Assembly (NCBI GenBank): GCA_039621445.1
Contig: CP154954.1
Span: 20,694,642-20,758,641 of the forward strand
Length of the DNA: 64,000 nt
Direction of reading: 5' to 3'
From: Euglena gracilis
Taxonomy: Eukaryota
Every line of letters starts with the position of its first letter. Within the stretch, counting starts at the first letter, position 1. Below are positions 6,001-9,000 of this stretch, piece after piece. Position numbers and translations under genes: made by a program. A model generated the notes under the pieces. It saw only the letters and a program-made list of their open reading frames with translations, ran no database searches and was not told where the DNA came from.

Positions 6001-9000
6001 TCCCATTGGGTGCCCCGCTCCTGCTTCAACGTGAGCCTCGTGTGAAGCCGCATGGATTCACCCTATTCTGGAAACCGTCGTCTGCATTTCGATGTGGAGG
6101 CATTTGAATCCCTCTCGTGCCCTAATGGATTGTCCCACTCCCGAGCGATGCAACCTGGTAGGTTTGGATCGGCCTTTCCTGGGGGAGGGGTGGGTGGCAG
6201 GCATGTGCGTTGCCAAGGCAGACCCGTCTTTTTTTGGTGCCCAAAGGGAGCCAGGGAAGTTCTGCACGGTAGTTCCTTTCTCTGTGGCTTTGGACGTGCA
6301 CTTTTAAATGGTTTCCAATTCGTTCAGTTGTCCAAAGCTGCCGCTTCGGGTTCAGTTGGTGCGCTATCATCCTCCTTGCCACTTCAGTGCTGAGAATGGA
6401 AAGTACACGCGCTGGCACGTCGGAGCCCAGGAACTTGGACCTTGCCTGTCGAATTGTTCCTGTCCAATTGACCGACAAAAGTGGGTATTACAATAATTTC
6501 GCGTGGCTGCTTTTTTGAAGGAAAGGCGTCATTCTGCCTGCCCCCTCCCCCCACTGGGAAGTTATTTCCCCCAGACTCTCGCTCGTATCCACCAATTTAG
6601 CTTCACAAGAGGTGCCCCTGCTGCAATCGCATTTGGGATTCCTCGGAAATTTGCTTTTATTGGGGAAATGGTTTTCAAAAAAATTTGGTGGACTTTTTTT
6701 TGAAAGTTCATTTTTAATTGGATTTTTGACTAAAAATTGAAATAGAAAAAAATCTGCCACTTGCAAGTTGCTCTTTGTGGACTACTCACCAAATTGGCCT
6801 CAATGAACGTTCCCTTCCCTGCTTGGCGTCAATTTGATTGAAGCCATTTTCCCAAGAAATGAAAACCCCCTTGTCCCAACTGAGCAAAAATGAATTACAA
6901 GAAATAAAATATCTCATATCCTGAGTTATTTGAGGAGGCTTTGGACTCCATAGCCGACTGACAGTCATCCCATGTACCCCCCCCCCATTTGGCTATGTCC
7001 AGACTCCCTCAGACCCCCCATTAGCCAATTAGTTGGAAGGGACAATTGGCACGAGGGCCCCTACCCCCTAATTCTTTACCTGTGCAACATTGGCATTGGT
7101 ATTTTTTGTGCATAGTTGGATTCGTCATGACTTTTTCTTATCTGGCAAAAAAATCAAATTTTTTCGAAACATAATTTTTAAAGGTTTGTGAGCCCTTTTG
7201 GCACCGTCTGCCCTTGCCCTTGCCAAAATTGGCCCATCTTCTCCCGGAGGCCAATCAGCAAATTGGGGTGGGGGTCCAACAGGGGGTTGAGGGCAGGGTT
7301 CGATATAAGGAGGGCGTACAAGGTTTAGGTGGGGGGGTGCCCCCCACCCCCCCCCCTCCTGGCCCGCAAGGGGTCCGGACCCCCCAGCTGTCTTTACATC
7401 AAACCCTGGTTGAGGGTACAAAAGGTTCAAAGCCATGCCTTCTTGCCCAACATTTTTTGATATTTTTGAGGTTGTTGACGGATTGGGACAATTAGGCTCC
7501 TCTGGAAAGAAGAGACACACCGCCATTTTCGGTACGAAACACCGACATTTTTGGGACCCCAAACACCTCCTCCCTCCCCCCCTGGGTTTCAACAAATTCC
7601 TGTGCCCTGCCCAGTTGTCTGCCTTGGGGGACAGGTCCCTGCCCCCAACCGCGTCGTGAGGGGAAAAACGTGGCAGTGGGGCGACGATGATGGGGGAGCT
7701 GGCAACGTGGGCGTCGTGACCACACCGTTGCTTCGGGGGTTTCCACCTCGCCCCCCCCCCAACGGGAGTGATTGATTGACTGCTTTTTTCCCCCATAAAA
7801 TTGGGAATCCTCCTCCCAAGGGGTTGGTCAGCAACGGTGTGGCCGTGACGGAGGTGGACTTCAATGGCCCGGAATGCGTCTGTGTCACGTGGCCGATCGG
7901 ACCCAGCAAGCACAGCTCTACCCTCTGAGCTCCAACCATCTCTCCGACCCCCCCCCCCCGTCTTCGTAGACTAGACGGGGGTCCACGGCCGGCAAGGGCC
8001 GACCAGGTGCGACAAGGGCTGACTGTGACATAAAAGAATCCCATAGGTGGCTGTTTTTTGGCCATTTTTTTGTCCACCAATGACCATTTCCCCCCCACTT
8101 TTATCCACTTTTGCCTCAAGGAAGATGCAAGTCAAGAGGAGGAGAAGGAAGTTACCAAAAGTTAGCAGAAGCAGCCTCAAGCTGGCAGAAGTGGCTAAAA
8201 ATTTGGCAGAAACAGCAAGTGGGCAAAAATTAGACGAAAGTCACCAAAAGCTGCAAAGAAGCCCAAAAGTCCAAAAGCACAAGCATTGACCAACAATGAC
8301 CAAAAAGCAGTAGAAGCAGCCTAAAATAAGCAAAAGTGGGCAAAGAAAGCCAAACGTGACCAAAAATTTACCACAAATCAAAAGCAGCCAAAATTGGCCA
8401 AAAAAGCAACCCGGAACACGGTGTATAAAAAGCAACCAAATGTGGTTTATAGCAGCCTAATTGGGGGGCGGGAATGCCAAAAGCAGCCAAAAGTGGGCAA
8501 TACCAACCCCTCCGCCTACCCCAAAATGCTGCCCCCTGGTATCGTGTTTGCTTTTTGCCTGGACTCTTTACCAATTCCTTGATTCACAACTTTGGGGGAA
8601 GGGACACAGGCAGCCTGAGGGAGGCTGTCAGCAAAAATTAGTGCCTTGGCCGCAATCGTTCCTATCGCGGCCAAACATGTGTTTGATTTAGGACCCCAGG
8701 GGGCTGGTCCGCCAGAAGAGGTTGTGCCCGTTTTGAAGAGCTCTGCTGTTTCCAGGCGCTGCAACCGTGTGAATCATCGGCAAACCGATCTCTGGTATGC
8801 CCCAGGGCAACCAATGCCACGCGAACGATCCCCTGGCAAAGCCTCAGGTGTGGATTCCAAAGCAGCATTTTGGCTTTTTTTTATTATTTTTTTTTGGCAT
8901 CACATTCTGTTTCTGTATACAGGTGTTATCTGGCAAGCGAGCAAGGTTTGGCAGAACTGCCATGGAGATCGTCGACACCCCCATGACCCATCCCCCTCTG

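What the first reader, a model, noticed from the sequence alone, without database searches (positions are those of the whole stretch)
7713..7849. Intron birth caught in the act: a hAT-type MITE inside a MIB/HERC2 exon is a perfectly removable nonconventional intron
Seen: module 1 has a 129-nt insertion inside 'GVVTEV' that is absent from the paralogous exons 15683-15805 and 48652-48780. The insert is a 121-bp element with perfect 12-bp TIRs (CACACCGTTGCT) and an 8-bp TSD (gtcgtgac/gccgtgac), and it carries an in-frame stop. Cutting 3 nt before the left TIR and 5 nt after the right TIR, as in the other introns here, restores the exon exactly. The single TSD mismatch lies in the part that would be intronic. 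Free elements with the same ends occur at 42670-43009 and 46994-47254. Known: hAT elements make 8-bp TSDs, and GTnnnnAC is the Hermes/hobo-type target consensus. Inference: this MITE family acts as an introner for euglenid nonconventional introns.
Basis: partly seen in the sequence, partly recalled or inferred. Interest (0 to 1): 0.92.

Follow-up and report, generated by a model that had tools for sequence, protein, structure and literature searches.

The report
Transposon copy removed as Euglena intron
A 121-base miniature transposon sits inside a protein-coding exon of a Euglena gracilis gene and appears to be cut out of the RNA as one of this organism's unusual "nonconventional" introns, which would be a concrete example for the long-standing idea that these introns come from transposons.

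Summary
A 121-bp element (7721-7841) has perfect 12-bp inverted ends and a 7/8 8-bp target duplication. It splits a MIB/HERC2 exon of a Euglena gracilis MIB/HERC2-SAM-ART gene, and the two paralogous exons lack it. It belongs to a MITE family with at least six copies in the window (39 of 48 duplication positions match). A second copy (15801-16344) also splits an exon. A second family (ends CAGGGGTTTTTT, also 8-bp duplications) is present.

The published splicing geometry for Euglena nonconventional introns places the cuts 3 nt before and 5 nt after the terminal helix. Applied to the element's ends, this removes element plus 8 nt, exactly one duplication.

A spliced transcript contig from this gene has exactly 160 nt between flanking exons, which is the 33 + 127 nt expected after removal of 129 nt. 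This is indirect: the contig carries two SNPs, its strain's DNA is unknown, and the raw-read joint table was truncated.

"hAT-type" is untested (no transposase; ends lack the hAT motif). "Caught in the act" is unsupported. The "free" copies lie inside introns.

The MITE origin of these introns has been hypothesised since 2013. A concrete family did not turn up in my literature searches.

The parts
7713..7720 (+). left copy of the 8-bp target duplication (gtcgtgac). Its first 5 nt stay exonic and its last 3 nt are the intron's 5' spacer.
7721..7841 (+). E1, a 121-bp MITE (family 1) with perfect 12-bp inverted ends CACACCGTTGCT at 7721-7732 and 7830-7841. It carries an in-frame stop.
7842..7849 (+). 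right copy of the target duplication (gccgtgac). Its first 5 nt are the intron's 3' spacer and its last 3 nt are exonic.
7718..7846 (+). predicted nonconventional intron of 129 nt: gac-CAC...GTG-gccgt, followed by exon base G. The cut can slide over 7 equivalent registers.
7647..7717 (+). first part of MIB/HERC2 exon, module 1 of gene A
7847..7904 (+). second part of MIB/HERC2 exon, module 1 of gene A
15801..16344 (+). E2, a 544-bp family-1 element with ends CATCCCGTTGCT / CATACCATTGCT and duplication gtcgtggc/gttgtggc (7 of 8). It splits the module-2 MIB/HERC2 exon. The predicted intron is 15798-16349.
16350..16363 (+). 14-nt micro-exon left between E2 and the next nonconventional intron (16364-17073). 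With it the frame reads VSWRSGR, as in the paralog protein P0001.
42670..43009 (+). E3, a family-1 copy with duplication 5 of 8, inside intron 5 of gene B
46994..47254 (+). E4, a family-1 copy with duplication 6 of 8, inside intron 8 of gene B
45113..45439 (+). E5, a family-1 subfamily copy (ends CAGTCAAT.../...ATTCTATG) with a perfect 8 of 8 duplication GGTGGGAA, inside an intron of gene B
16919..17046 (+). E6, same subfamily as E5, duplication 6 of 8, inside gene A intron 16364-17073
39717..39975 (+). family-2 MITE of 259 bp with perfect 12-bp ends CAGGGGTTTTTT and an 8 of 8 duplication GGGTGGAC. Its ends start CAG...CTG, the canonical nonconventional-intron motif.
48860..49126 (+). family-2 MITE of 267 bp with duplication GACTCACC/GACTCGCC (7 of 8), inside intron 11 of gene B
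13314..13558 (+). family-2 MITE of 245 bp inserted in a (TATC)n microsatellite, so its 8 of 8 flank match is uninformative
5623..5882 (+). nonconventional intron of gene A with the same end type as E1 (gaa-CAC...GTG-gagtc|G, 12-bp helix), removed in RNA contig X15 record 2
1261..1930 (+). non-slidable nonconventional intron gcc-CAT...ATG-cccac|A, removed in RNA contig X15 record 1
10030..14135 (+). 4.1-kb nonconventional intron gtc-CAG...CTG-caact|G of gene A. Six raw RNA reads of run X22 run from 10030 into letters equal to 14137-14166.

Best explanation
The window is Euglena gracilis nuclear DNA with two tandem paralogous genes that encode MIB/HERC2-SAM-ADP-ribosyltransferase proteins.

A non-autonomous DNA transposon (E1, 121 bp, 12-bp inverted ends) inserted into a MIB/HERC2 exon of gene A and duplicated 8 bp of target.

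In the pre-mRNA the two inverted ends pair, and the near-palindromic duplicated target extends that helix. The (still unknown) nonconventional-intron machinery cuts 3 nt upstream of the helix on the 5' side and 5 nt downstream on the 3' side. Because 3 + 5 = 8, the cut removes the element plus exactly one copy of the duplication and restores the exon, so the insertion is tolerated and persists as an intron.

Shown: the MITE anatomy, the family, the 8-bp duplications, the geometric fit, and a transcript contig of the right length.

Inferred: that the E1-bearing allele itself is the one spliced, that the helix is the recognition element for E1, and the transposon superfamily.
For: Organism and gene:
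- Protein P0002 (EukProt name EG_transcript_2083) is 100% identical to 10 of 14 checked exon blocks of gene B (4 blocks deviate at an edge or were mis-set).
- P0001 (EG_transcript_755) is a paralog of gene A, 75-100% identical per matched block, and collinear with it.
- Pfam finds MIB_HERC2 twice, plus ART/ADPrib_exo_Tox above cutoff in P0001 only and SAM below cutoff.

MITE nature:
- E1 has perfect 12-bp inverted ends and a 7 of 8 duplication.
- Six family-1 copies have 8-bp flank matches of 7, 7, 5, 6, 8 and 6, a total of 39 of 48 (P = 4.5e-16 at p = 0.25). The next-outer 8-mers match at 16 of 48.
- The copies share subterminal motifs.

Geometry:
- 16 of 20 introns modelled in the window have a helix of at least 4 pairs starting at +4 and ending 5 nt before the exon. 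The downstream exon starts with a purine in 15 of those 16. The register was chosen to maximise the helix, and no shuffle control was run.
- The published rule is 3 nt / 5-6 nt / purine (PMC12501133, sections 8 and 11 read).

End type:
- Introns 5623-5882 (CAC..GTG) and 1261-1930 (CAT..ATG, non-slidable) are removed in RNA contigs.
- Gene B intron 8 (CGC..GCG) is removed according to P0002.

RNA evidence:
- X15 record 2 (997 nt, depth 12) maps 5543-5622, 5883-6039 and 8752-8834 to record positions 21-100, 101-257 and 418-500. That leaves 160 nt between 6039 and 8752.
- The exon model gives 33 nt (6392-6424) plus 127 nt (7647-7717 and 7847-7902) = 160 nt.
- Bin depths agree. The bin holding the 33-nt exon reads 0.88, which corresponds to 33 nt at depth 12.
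- With E1 retained the figure would be 289 nt.
- The contig is gene-A type. Its two differences, at 5590 and 5964, are third-codon positions, and it reads GHRILMRR and DDAYF rather than the P0001 forms.

DNA and other support:
- DNA contig X9 record 9 spans 7347-8326 with 0 differences and no break at E1.
- None of the seven equivalent registers is GT-AG, GC-AG or AT-AC (read).
- The fold pairs the ends over 13 bp and the two duplication copies over 6 bp.
Against: - The RNA evidence is length arithmetic, not a read junction.
- The run is only guessed to be RNA. Its contig differs from the window at 2 of 237 listed exon letters, and the DNA of that strain or allele was not seen, so an allele without E1 would give the same contig.
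- No RNA joint at 7717|7847 is listed. The joint table shows 15 rows, all DNA-run noise, with 153 more not shown, so this neither supports nor refutes.
- Raw-read depth is only about 1-2 per 450-nt bin.
- E1's ends are CAC..GTG, whereas the genetically defined code is CDG..CH'G, and single substitutions in CAG or CTG abolished splicing in knock-ins (PMC12501133, section 7).
- The fold of 7698-7866 is not exceptional overall (z = -1.66; 13 of 200 shuffles fold as well).
- Fifteen ordinary nonconventional introns in the window show no trace of an 8-bp duplication (3.13 matches against 2.84 in mismatched pairs; permutation p = 0.20).
- No transposase was found in the window (0 Pfam hits in the 10 longest ORFs).
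Confidence: 0.75

Rival explanations
1. Empty-site allele. E1 is a disruptive, unspliced insertion in one allele or strain. The transcript contig that lacks the 129 nt comes from another allele or strain of gene A that never received E1. The E1-bearing copy yields truncated or degraded mRNA.
For: The X15 contig differs from the window at 5590 and 5964. Those variants are minor in X21/X22 raw reads (3 of 14 and 1 of 8) and absent from X9 DNA contigs, so more than one haplotype or strain exists. E1's CAC..GTG ends lie outside the tested code (PMC12501133, sections 7 and 11). No RNA joint is listed.
Against: - DNA contig X9 record 9 runs unbroken through E1 and records 8-10 are 1-2.5 kb long. That argues against a second, equally abundant haplotype in that strain.
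- In X21/X22 the window's letters are the majority, and six X22 reads cross the downstream junction 10030|14136 with window-type sequence. E1-side transcripts are therefore not conspicuously depleted.
- Depth in bin 7651-8100 (X22 1.99, X21 1.09) fits about 125 exon letters at the depth of neighbouring exons better than about 254 letters. These are only a few reads.
- A CAC..GTG intron is spliced 2 kb upstream in the same gene.
Confidence: 0.17
2. The element family is not hAT. It belongs to another cut-and-paste superfamily that also makes 8-bp (or 8-9-bp) duplications, such as P, Merlin or Mutator-like (named from recall), or to an undescribed euglenozoan group.
For: Family-1 ends CAYACC do not fit the hAT terminal motif YARNG (recalled). 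The Hermes-type target pattern nTnnnnAn (PMC10368747, passage seen) is only partly met: T at position 2 in 6 of 9 and A at position 7 in 5 of 9 duplications of both families. No transposase is in the window.
Against: The duplication length is 8 bp in all 9 copies with both ends defined. Family-2 ends CAGGGG do fit YARNG and resemble Ac-type ends (recalled). The inverted ends are short (12 bp), as in hAT MITEs.
Confidence: 0.4
3. E1 is an ordinary old nonconventional intron. Its inverted ends are kept by selection for the splicing helix, and its flanking direct repeat and resemblance to other elements are coincidental. No transposition was involved.
For: Nonconventional introns generally carry terminal helices and short direct repeats. 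84.4% of E. agilis introns are 'slidable' (PMC12501133, passage seen).
Against: The same 12-nt ends and subterminal motifs recur in five other copies at unrelated places, each flanked by its own 8-bp repeat (39 of 48 matches). The paralogous exons lack any intron at this site.
Confidence: 0.03

Closest known systems
Euglenid nonconventional introns (Milanowski et al. 2013/2016; Nomura et al. 2025, PMC12501133)
   Same: No GT-AG borders. A terminal helix starts at +4 and ends at -6, with CA..TG at +4,+5 / -7,-6. There is a 3-nt 5' spacer, a 5-nt 3' spacer and a purine at the start of the downstream exon. Direct repeats make the junction slidable.
   Different: The third base pair of the motif is C:G (CAC..GTG), not G:C (CAG..CTG). 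Here the intron is, end to end, a copy of a repeated element with a recognisable 8-bp target duplication. I did not find such a case reported in my searches.
Introner elements of Micromonas, Aureococcus, dinoflagellates and others (reviewed in PMC11282704, passages seen)
   Same: Non-autonomous DNA transposons with inverted ends and target duplications insert into exons. They are tolerated because splicing removes the element plus the equivalent of one duplication.
   Different: Those are removed by the spliceosome, using splice sites carried by the element or created with the duplication (3-5 nt). Here removal follows the helix-measured nonconventional route, and the duplication is 8 bp split 3 + 5.
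hAT-superfamily MITEs (for example Ds-type elements; Hermes biochemistry in PMC10368747)
   Same: 8-bp target duplication, short inverted ends and small non-coding copies. Family-2 ends begin CAGGG.
   Different: Family-1 ends do not fit the hAT terminal motif. The target pattern nTnnnnAn is only partly met. No transposase has been linked.

Membership tests
Euglenid nonconventional intron | No conventional GT/GC-AG (or AT-AC) borders in any register that gives the same mRNA | tested here: met
   The seven equivalent registers (last exon base 7714-7720) give intron ends cg..gc, gt..cc, tg..cg, ga..gt, ac..tg, cc..ga and ca..ac (read; slide count).
Euglenid nonconventional intron | Terminal helix that brings the ends together, starting at +4 and ending at -6, with a 3-nt 5' spacer and a 5-6-nt 3' spacer | tested here: met
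   12-bp perfect helix at exactly N3/N5. The minimum-energy fold pairs 13 + 6 bp. The rule is from PMC12501133, section 8.
Euglenid nonconventional intron | Motif CDG at +4..+6 and CH'G at -8..-6 | tested here: not met
   E1 has CAC and GTG. Only the CA..TG core (PMC3935182) is met. Natural CAC..GTG, CAT..ATG and CGC..GCG introns in this window are spliced. The paper's supplementary motif tables (Datasets S7, S8) could not be opened.
Euglenid nonconventional intron | Purine as first base of the downstream exon | tested here: met
   G at 7847.
Euglenid nonconventional intron | Absent from mature mRNA | tested here: inconclusive
   RNA contig X15 record 2 has exactly 160 nt between 6039 and 8752, which fits removal of 129 nt. 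The junction letters were not shown, and the DNA of that strain or allele is unknown.
MITE (non-autonomous cut-and-paste element) | Terminal inverted repeats, a target duplication of fixed length, small size, no coding capacity and multiple copies | tested here: met
   12-bp ends. 8-bp duplications in 6 of 6 family-1 copies (39 of 48 positions). Sizes are 121-544 bp. Shared subterminal motifs.
hAT superfamily | 8-bp target duplication | tested here: met
   The Hermes reference passage is in PMC10368747.
hAT superfamily | Terminal motif YARNG (recalled, not from a call) | tested here: not met
   Family 1 has CACAC / CATAC / CAGTC. Family 2 has CAGGG and does fit.
hAT superfamily | Target preference nTnnnnAn | tested here: inconclusive
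   T at position 2 in 6 of 9 and A at position 7 in 5 of 9 duplications. The sample is too small.
hAT superfamily | Mobilised by a transposase with BED finger, RNase-H-like core and hAT dimerisation domain | not testable with these tools
   No whole genome is held. The 10 longest window ORFs have no Pfam hit.
Introner (multi-copy intron-generating element) | Several near-identical copies, each constituting a whole intron at unrelated exon positions | tested here: inconclusive
   2 of 6 family-1 copies in the window (E1, E2) coincide with whole predicted introns and 4 are nested inside introns. Of 20 modelled introns, only these 2 are family members. A genome-wide count was not possible.

The most novel reading that the evidence does not exclude
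The euglenid nonconventional splicing code may itself be the footprint of 8-bp-duplicating (hAT-like) MITEs. In this reading 'N3-CAG...CTG-N5' is the last 3 nt of the left duplication, then the transposon's CAG...CTG inverted ends, then the first 5 nt of the right duplication. The RNA machinery would then excise precisely what the transposase inserted.

Family 2 in this window (ends CAGGGGTTTTTT, duplications 8 of 8 and 7 of 8) would yield canonical code-compliant introns wherever it lands in an exon.

When the target is palindromic, as for E1, the helix continues through both cut sites and the two cuts are offset by 2 bp. That leaves 2-nt 3' overhangs, the geometry of an RNase III-type enzyme. 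This hints at the still unknown excision nuclease.
Probability: 0.35. Interest if true: 0.9.

Novelty: new variant of a known kind. Interest (0 to 1): 0.74.

Why it matters
Whether euglenid nonconventional introns derive from transposons has been an explicit open question since 2013. [quoted passage not shown] In the passages I read, only inverted ends and vague 'TSD-like' repeats are cited as evidence, and the 2013 paper states that no transposable elements had yet been identified in euglenids.

This window offers named, countable element families with clean 8-bp duplications. Exon-inserted copies coincide base for base with introns predicted by the experimentally derived 3/5 rule. That does three things:
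- It makes the hypothesis directly testable, by genome-wide census, strain comparison and the existing knock-in assay.
- It gives a reason for the odd 3 + 5 spacing.
- It narrows the search for both the transposase and the excision enzyme.

Tried and rejected
- Whole-genome search: no genome is held for this window.
I re-sent 1-13500 as the tool advised.
- In one search the joint table was filled by repeat noise from DNA run X9 (15 rows shown, 153 hidden).
- The look-up of sequencing runs listed no RNA holder on record. Six small-share runs are only guessed to be RNA.
- Two protein-database searches for gene A's own transcript product returned only the paralog P0001, gene B's P0002 and two ORFs read from genomic contigs (P0003, P0004). 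No direct junction peptide for gene A was obtained.
- P0001 lacks the insert, but it is a paralog (75-100% identical per matched block), so it says nothing about E1.
- Pfam scan of the 10 longest ORFs for a transposase: 0 hits.
- Test for duplication remnants in 15 ordinary nonconventional introns: not significant (p = 0.20).
- Earlier-findings look-ups by place, words and sequence: nothing.
- A first Pfam call failed on a stop codon in one reference. I repeated it with other coordinates.
- I considered and rejected conventional splicing of E1 (no GT-AG register) and exon skipping (contig length and bin depth place about 125 nt in 7651-8100).
- I did not scan metagenome contigs for more copies. 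Short patterns would give mostly chance hits, and no RNA would come with them.
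Full report
**1. Observation**

- The 8-mer gtcgtgac lies at 7713-7720.
- CACACCGTTGCT lies at 7721-7732, and its perfect reverse complement at 7830-7841.
- gccgtgac lies at 7842-7849.
- The element is 121 bp. Element plus one flank repeat is 129 nt.

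In frame, the exon reads ...[11 protein letters not shown]... and hits a stop inside the element. The two paralogous exons (15674-15802 and 48643-48798) read through without any insert and match Pfam MIB_HERC2.

Chance does not explain this.
- The 12-mer with at most one mismatch occurs 4 times against 0.20 expected.
- In 100 Markov-1 random windows, none of the perfect 12-bp inverted pairs (mean 7.5 per window) had flanks matching at 7 of 8 or better.

**2. Organism and genes**

A database search with the exon at 5884-6039 returned two EukProt proteins named EG_transcript_755 (P0001) and EG_transcript_2083 (P0002).
- P0002 is 100% identical to 10 of 14 checked exon blocks between 38490 and 53212; the other 4 blocks deviate at an edge or were mis-set. 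The window is therefore E. gracilis DNA, and 'gene B' is the P0002 gene.
- 'Gene A' runs from before position 1 to 34523. It is collinear with P0001 but only 75-100% identical per matched block. P0001 is a paralog, not gene A's product.
- P0001 has two MIB_HERC2 domains and an ADP-ribosyltransferase domain above Pfam's cutoff, with a SAM match below it; in P0002 only MIB_HERC2 reaches the cutoff.

**3. Element families**

E1 is one of at least six copies of a family with ends CAYMCCRTTGCT or a variant.

| Copy | Coordinates | Flank match (of 8) | Location |
|---|---|---|---|
| E1 | 7721-7841 | 7 | splits module-1 exon of gene A |
| E2 | 15801-16344 | 7 | splits module-2 exon of gene A |
| E3 | 42670-43009 | 5 | gene B intron 5 |
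| E4 | 46994-47254 | 6 | gene B intron 8 |
| E5 | 45113-45439 | 8 (GGTGGGAA) | a gene B intron |
| E6 | 16919-17046 | 6 | gene A intron 16364-17073 |

- In total 39 of 48 flank positions match (P = 4.5e-16). The next-outer 8-mers match at 16 of 48, close to chance.
- The copies share a C/G run and a GTGAYTGAYTGG-TTTTTT motif near the 5' end, and GTCGNTAAGCAAYGGTRTG at the 3' end.
- E3-E6 are not free-standing. They lie inside introns of genes A and B.

A second family appeared as a by-product of the chance test. Its perfect 12-bp ends are CAGGGGTTTTTT.
- Copy 39717-39975 has flanks GGGTGGAC matching 8 of 8.
- Copy 48860-49126 has flanks matching 7 of 8.
- Copy 13314-13558 lies in a microsatellite, so its flanks are uninformative.
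- There are three solitary ends.

Its ends begin CAG and finish CTG.

**4. Fit to the nonconventional-intron rule**

Nomura et al. 2025 (PMC12501133; abstract and sections 7, 8, 10 and 11 read, discussion passages seen) defined by knock-in the signature N3-CDG...CH'G-N5-6|R. Their spacer experiments show that 3 nt on the 5' side is strict and that 5 nt, or less well 6 nt, is needed on the 3' side. Milanowski et al. 2013 (PMC3935182, passages seen) had found CA..TG at +4,+5 / -7,-6.

I modelled 20 introns in the window.
- Ten in gene B came from the identical protein P0002.
- Four in gene A came from RNA contig pieces.
- Six in gene A came from the paralog protein plus contig length.

Of these 20, 16 have a helix of at least 4 pairs exactly at N3/N5, and 15 of those 16 are followed by a purine. 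I chose the register that maximised the helix and ran no shuffle control.

For E1 the same rule gives gac-CAC...GTG-gccgt|G, that is, intron 7718-7846. Because 3 + 5 = 8, the rule removes the element plus one duplication.

That removal 'restores the exon exactly' is true of any insertion with a target duplication, so it is not itself evidence. The non-trivial point is that the helix starts at the first base of the element and the fixed spacers sum to the duplication length.

E1's third pair is C:G rather than G:C, which is outside the tested code. But three introns in the window depart from the code in the same way and are still removed.
- In gene A, intron 5623-5882 (gaa-CAC...GTG-gagtc|G, 12-bp helix) is removed in RNA contigs.
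- In gene A, the non-slidable intron 1261-1930 (gcc-CAT...ATG-cccac|A) is also removed in RNA contigs.
- In gene B, intron 8 (CGC..GCG) is removed according to P0002.

No conventional border pair exists in any of the seven equivalent registers.

**5. RNA evidence**

The run search listed no holder on record as RNA. It gave six small-share runs guessed to be RNA and four 2026 raw-read RNA runs of the same species label. I laid two raw RNA runs, one guessed-RNA contig run (X15) and one DNA run (X9) on 1-13500.

Expression is low, at about 0.5-2 reads of depth per 450-nt bin. The joint table was filled by repeat noise from the DNA run, so no RNA joints are visible.

X15 record 2 (997 nt, depth 12) is a spliced contig.
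- 5543-5622 maps to record positions 21-100.
- 5883-6039 maps to 101-257.
- 8752-8834 maps to 418-500.
- The 160 record letters in between must come from 6040-8751.

The exon model predicts this figure exactly.
- The model is fixed independently by the N3/N5 rule and by collinearity with P0001.
- It gives a 33-nt exon (6392-6424) and the MIB exon 7647-7717 + 7847-7904.
- The aligner assigned 2 nt of that exon to the next piece, leaving 127 nt.
- 33 + 127 = 160.

Bin depths agree: 0.88 in 6301-6750 equals 33 nt at depth 12. The exons at 5543-5622, 5883-6039 and 8752-8834 likewise reproduce their bin depths.

With E1 retained the gap would be 289 nt. With the exon skipped it would be 33 nt.

The contig is of gene-A type. 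Its two differences, at 5590 and 5964, are third-codon positions, and it encodes GHRILMRR and DDAYF where P0001 has GHQILMRN and DDTYL.

**6. Limits of that evidence**

- The junction letters were not displayed.
- X15 is a different study whose DNA I did not see. Its two SNPs show that it is not the window's exact haplotype. An allele lacking E1 would therefore give the same contig.

Four points weigh against that rival.
- DNA contig X9 record 9 crosses E1 (7347-8326) with no difference and no break, and the neighbouring contigs are 1-2.5 kb long. This argues against a second common haplotype in that strain.
- In raw runs X21/X22 the window's letters are the majority at 5590 (11 of 14) and at 5964 (7 of 8).
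- Six X22 reads cross the downstream junction 10030|14136 into window-type sequence.
- Depth in the E1 bin fits exon-only coverage better than retention, though on a handful of reads.

I put about 0.75 on RNA-level removal of E1 and about 0.17 on the empty-allele rival.

**7. E2**

E2's left duplication gtcgtggc and right duplication gttgtggc differ at one position. The 3/5 rule gives intron 15798-16349, followed by a 14-nt micro-exon (16350-16363) and then a canonical ggc-CAG...CTG-ctcgc intron running to 17073.

The joined frame reads ...[21 protein letters not shown]..., collinear with P0001's ...EMVRVSWRSGRHECSVADYRQ....

At RNA level the two E2 ends pair at 11 of 12 positions. The minimum-energy fold pairs only part of them. 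No RNA was laid on this region.

**8. Structure**

The fold of 7698-7866 pairs the inverted ends (13 bp). After a 1-nt internal loop it pairs the two duplication copies (6 bp), because GTCGTGAC is nearly palindromic.

Both predicted cuts then lie inside one continuous helix, offset by 2 bp. Each product would carry a 2-nt 3' overhang, which is RNase III-like geometry. This is my inference. The terms RNase III, Dicer, endonuclease and overhang do not occur in PMC12501133, and RNase III and endonuclease do not occur in PMC6221363.

The overall fold energy is not exceptional (z = -1.66).

**9. Superfamily**

The 8-bp duplication is what Hermes and other hAT elements make, with target preference nTnnnnAn (PMC10368747, passages seen).

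In the nine duplications here, T is at position 2 in 6 and A is at position 7 in 5. Family-1 ends do not fit the hAT terminal motif that I recall as YARNG. Family-2 ends (CAGGG) do fit it.

No transposase ORF is in the window and no genome is held. 'hAT-like' is therefore a lead, not a membership.

**10. Generality**

Only 2 of the 20 modelled introns are family members. Fifteen ordinary nonconventional introns show no excess match between exon(-5..-1)+N3 and N5+exon(+1..+3): 3.13 against 2.84, p = 0.20. Most introns here are thus either older, of other origin, or decayed.

One verified gene B intron is itself MITE-like. Intron 38549-38639 (91 nt, CGG..CCG) has a 14-bp perfect helix and a 6 of 8 flank match.

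**11. Literature**

The MITE origin is proposed in the following papers; for each I saw passages only.
- PMC3935182 (2013), which also states that no transposable elements had then been identified in euglenids.
- PMC6221363 (2018), where it is posed as an open question.
- PMC11282704 (2024 review), which mentions 'TSD-like sequences'.
- PMC12501133 (2025).
- PMC12621601 (2025).

Five searches returned no paper that names a euglenid MITE family, an 8-bp duplication, or the 3 + 5 = 8 relation:
- 'nonconventional introns' + Euglena + transposable
- 'nonconventional intron' + MITE
- Euglena + introner
- 'nonconventional introns' + 'target site duplication'
- Euglena gracilis + nuclear genome + transposon + introns, from 2022

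A further search, Euglena gracilis + genome assembly + hAT + transposable elements, found one paper on Merlin elements. I saw only its listing.

Subscription journals and supplementary files were not searchable.

**12. Verdict**

The core reading, a MITE serving as a nonconventional intron, is probably right and is supported by quantitative but indirect RNA evidence.

The labels 'hAT-type' and 'caught in the act' are not established.

It is a new variant of a known kind (transposon-derived introns). It has high value as a test case for a long-standing hypothesis, and it offers a possible explanation of the 3/5 splicing geometry.

Noticed in passing
window 39717-39975, 48860-49126, 13314-13558; solitary ends at 36957, 41092, 44625: A second MITE family has perfect 12-bp ends CAGGGGTTTTTT and 8-bp duplications (8 of 8 and 7 of 8; the third copy lies in a microsatellite). 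Its ends begin CAG and finish CTG, the canonical nonconventional-intron motif. Its subterminal parts resemble those of family-1 copies E5 and E6.
   Followed up: partly
window 7713-7849: In the predicted helix the two cut sites are offset by 2 bp, which would leave 2-nt 3' overhangs. This is RNase III-like geometry and a possible clue to the unknown excision enzyme.
   Followed up: partly
window 38549-38639: Gene B intron 1 (91 nt, gcc-CGG...CCG-ggaag|G) is verified by the identical protein P0002. It has a 14-bp perfect terminal helix and flanks GGCAAGCC/GGAAGGCC (6 of 8). It looks like another small MITE serving as a whole intron.
   Followed up: partly
window 7905-8753: The intron after the MIB exon has AAG where gene B's homologous intron has CAG at +4..+6, yet the RNA contig lacks it. 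This would be a natural exception to the first base of the published motif.
   Followed up: no
window 16350-16363: A 14-nt micro-exon is predicted between element E2 and the next nonconventional intron.
   Followed up: partly
window 43149-43467 and 43746-44076: A tandem duplication of about 600 bp inside gene B carries two identical copies of the exon that encodes LEGNCRFAVSLCHTGQMVE (43215-43271 and 43812-43868). Which copy is used is unknown.
   Followed up: no
window 10801-11250 and 7201-7650: Word depth in DNA run X9 is extreme here (about 404,000 and 30,600, against about 43 for single-copy bins). These stretches hold very high-copy repeats of the genome.
   Followed up: no
window 28650-29200: This is a dense block of short inverted and tandem repeats. 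It includes a 24-nt inverted pair around CACACCGTTCTT, which resembles the family-1 end only by its first 9 letters.
   Followed up: no
window 13233-13314 and 13559-13660: (TATC)n microsatellites flank a family-2 MITE.
   Followed up: yes
window 7713-7720 and 15793-15800: The two exon-splitting insertions chose almost the same target (GTCGTGAC and GTCGTGGC). Five of six family-1 duplications start with GT, and position 6 is a purine in 7 of 9 duplications of both families. That position becomes the first base of the downstream exon, where the published rule demands a purine.
   Followed up: partly
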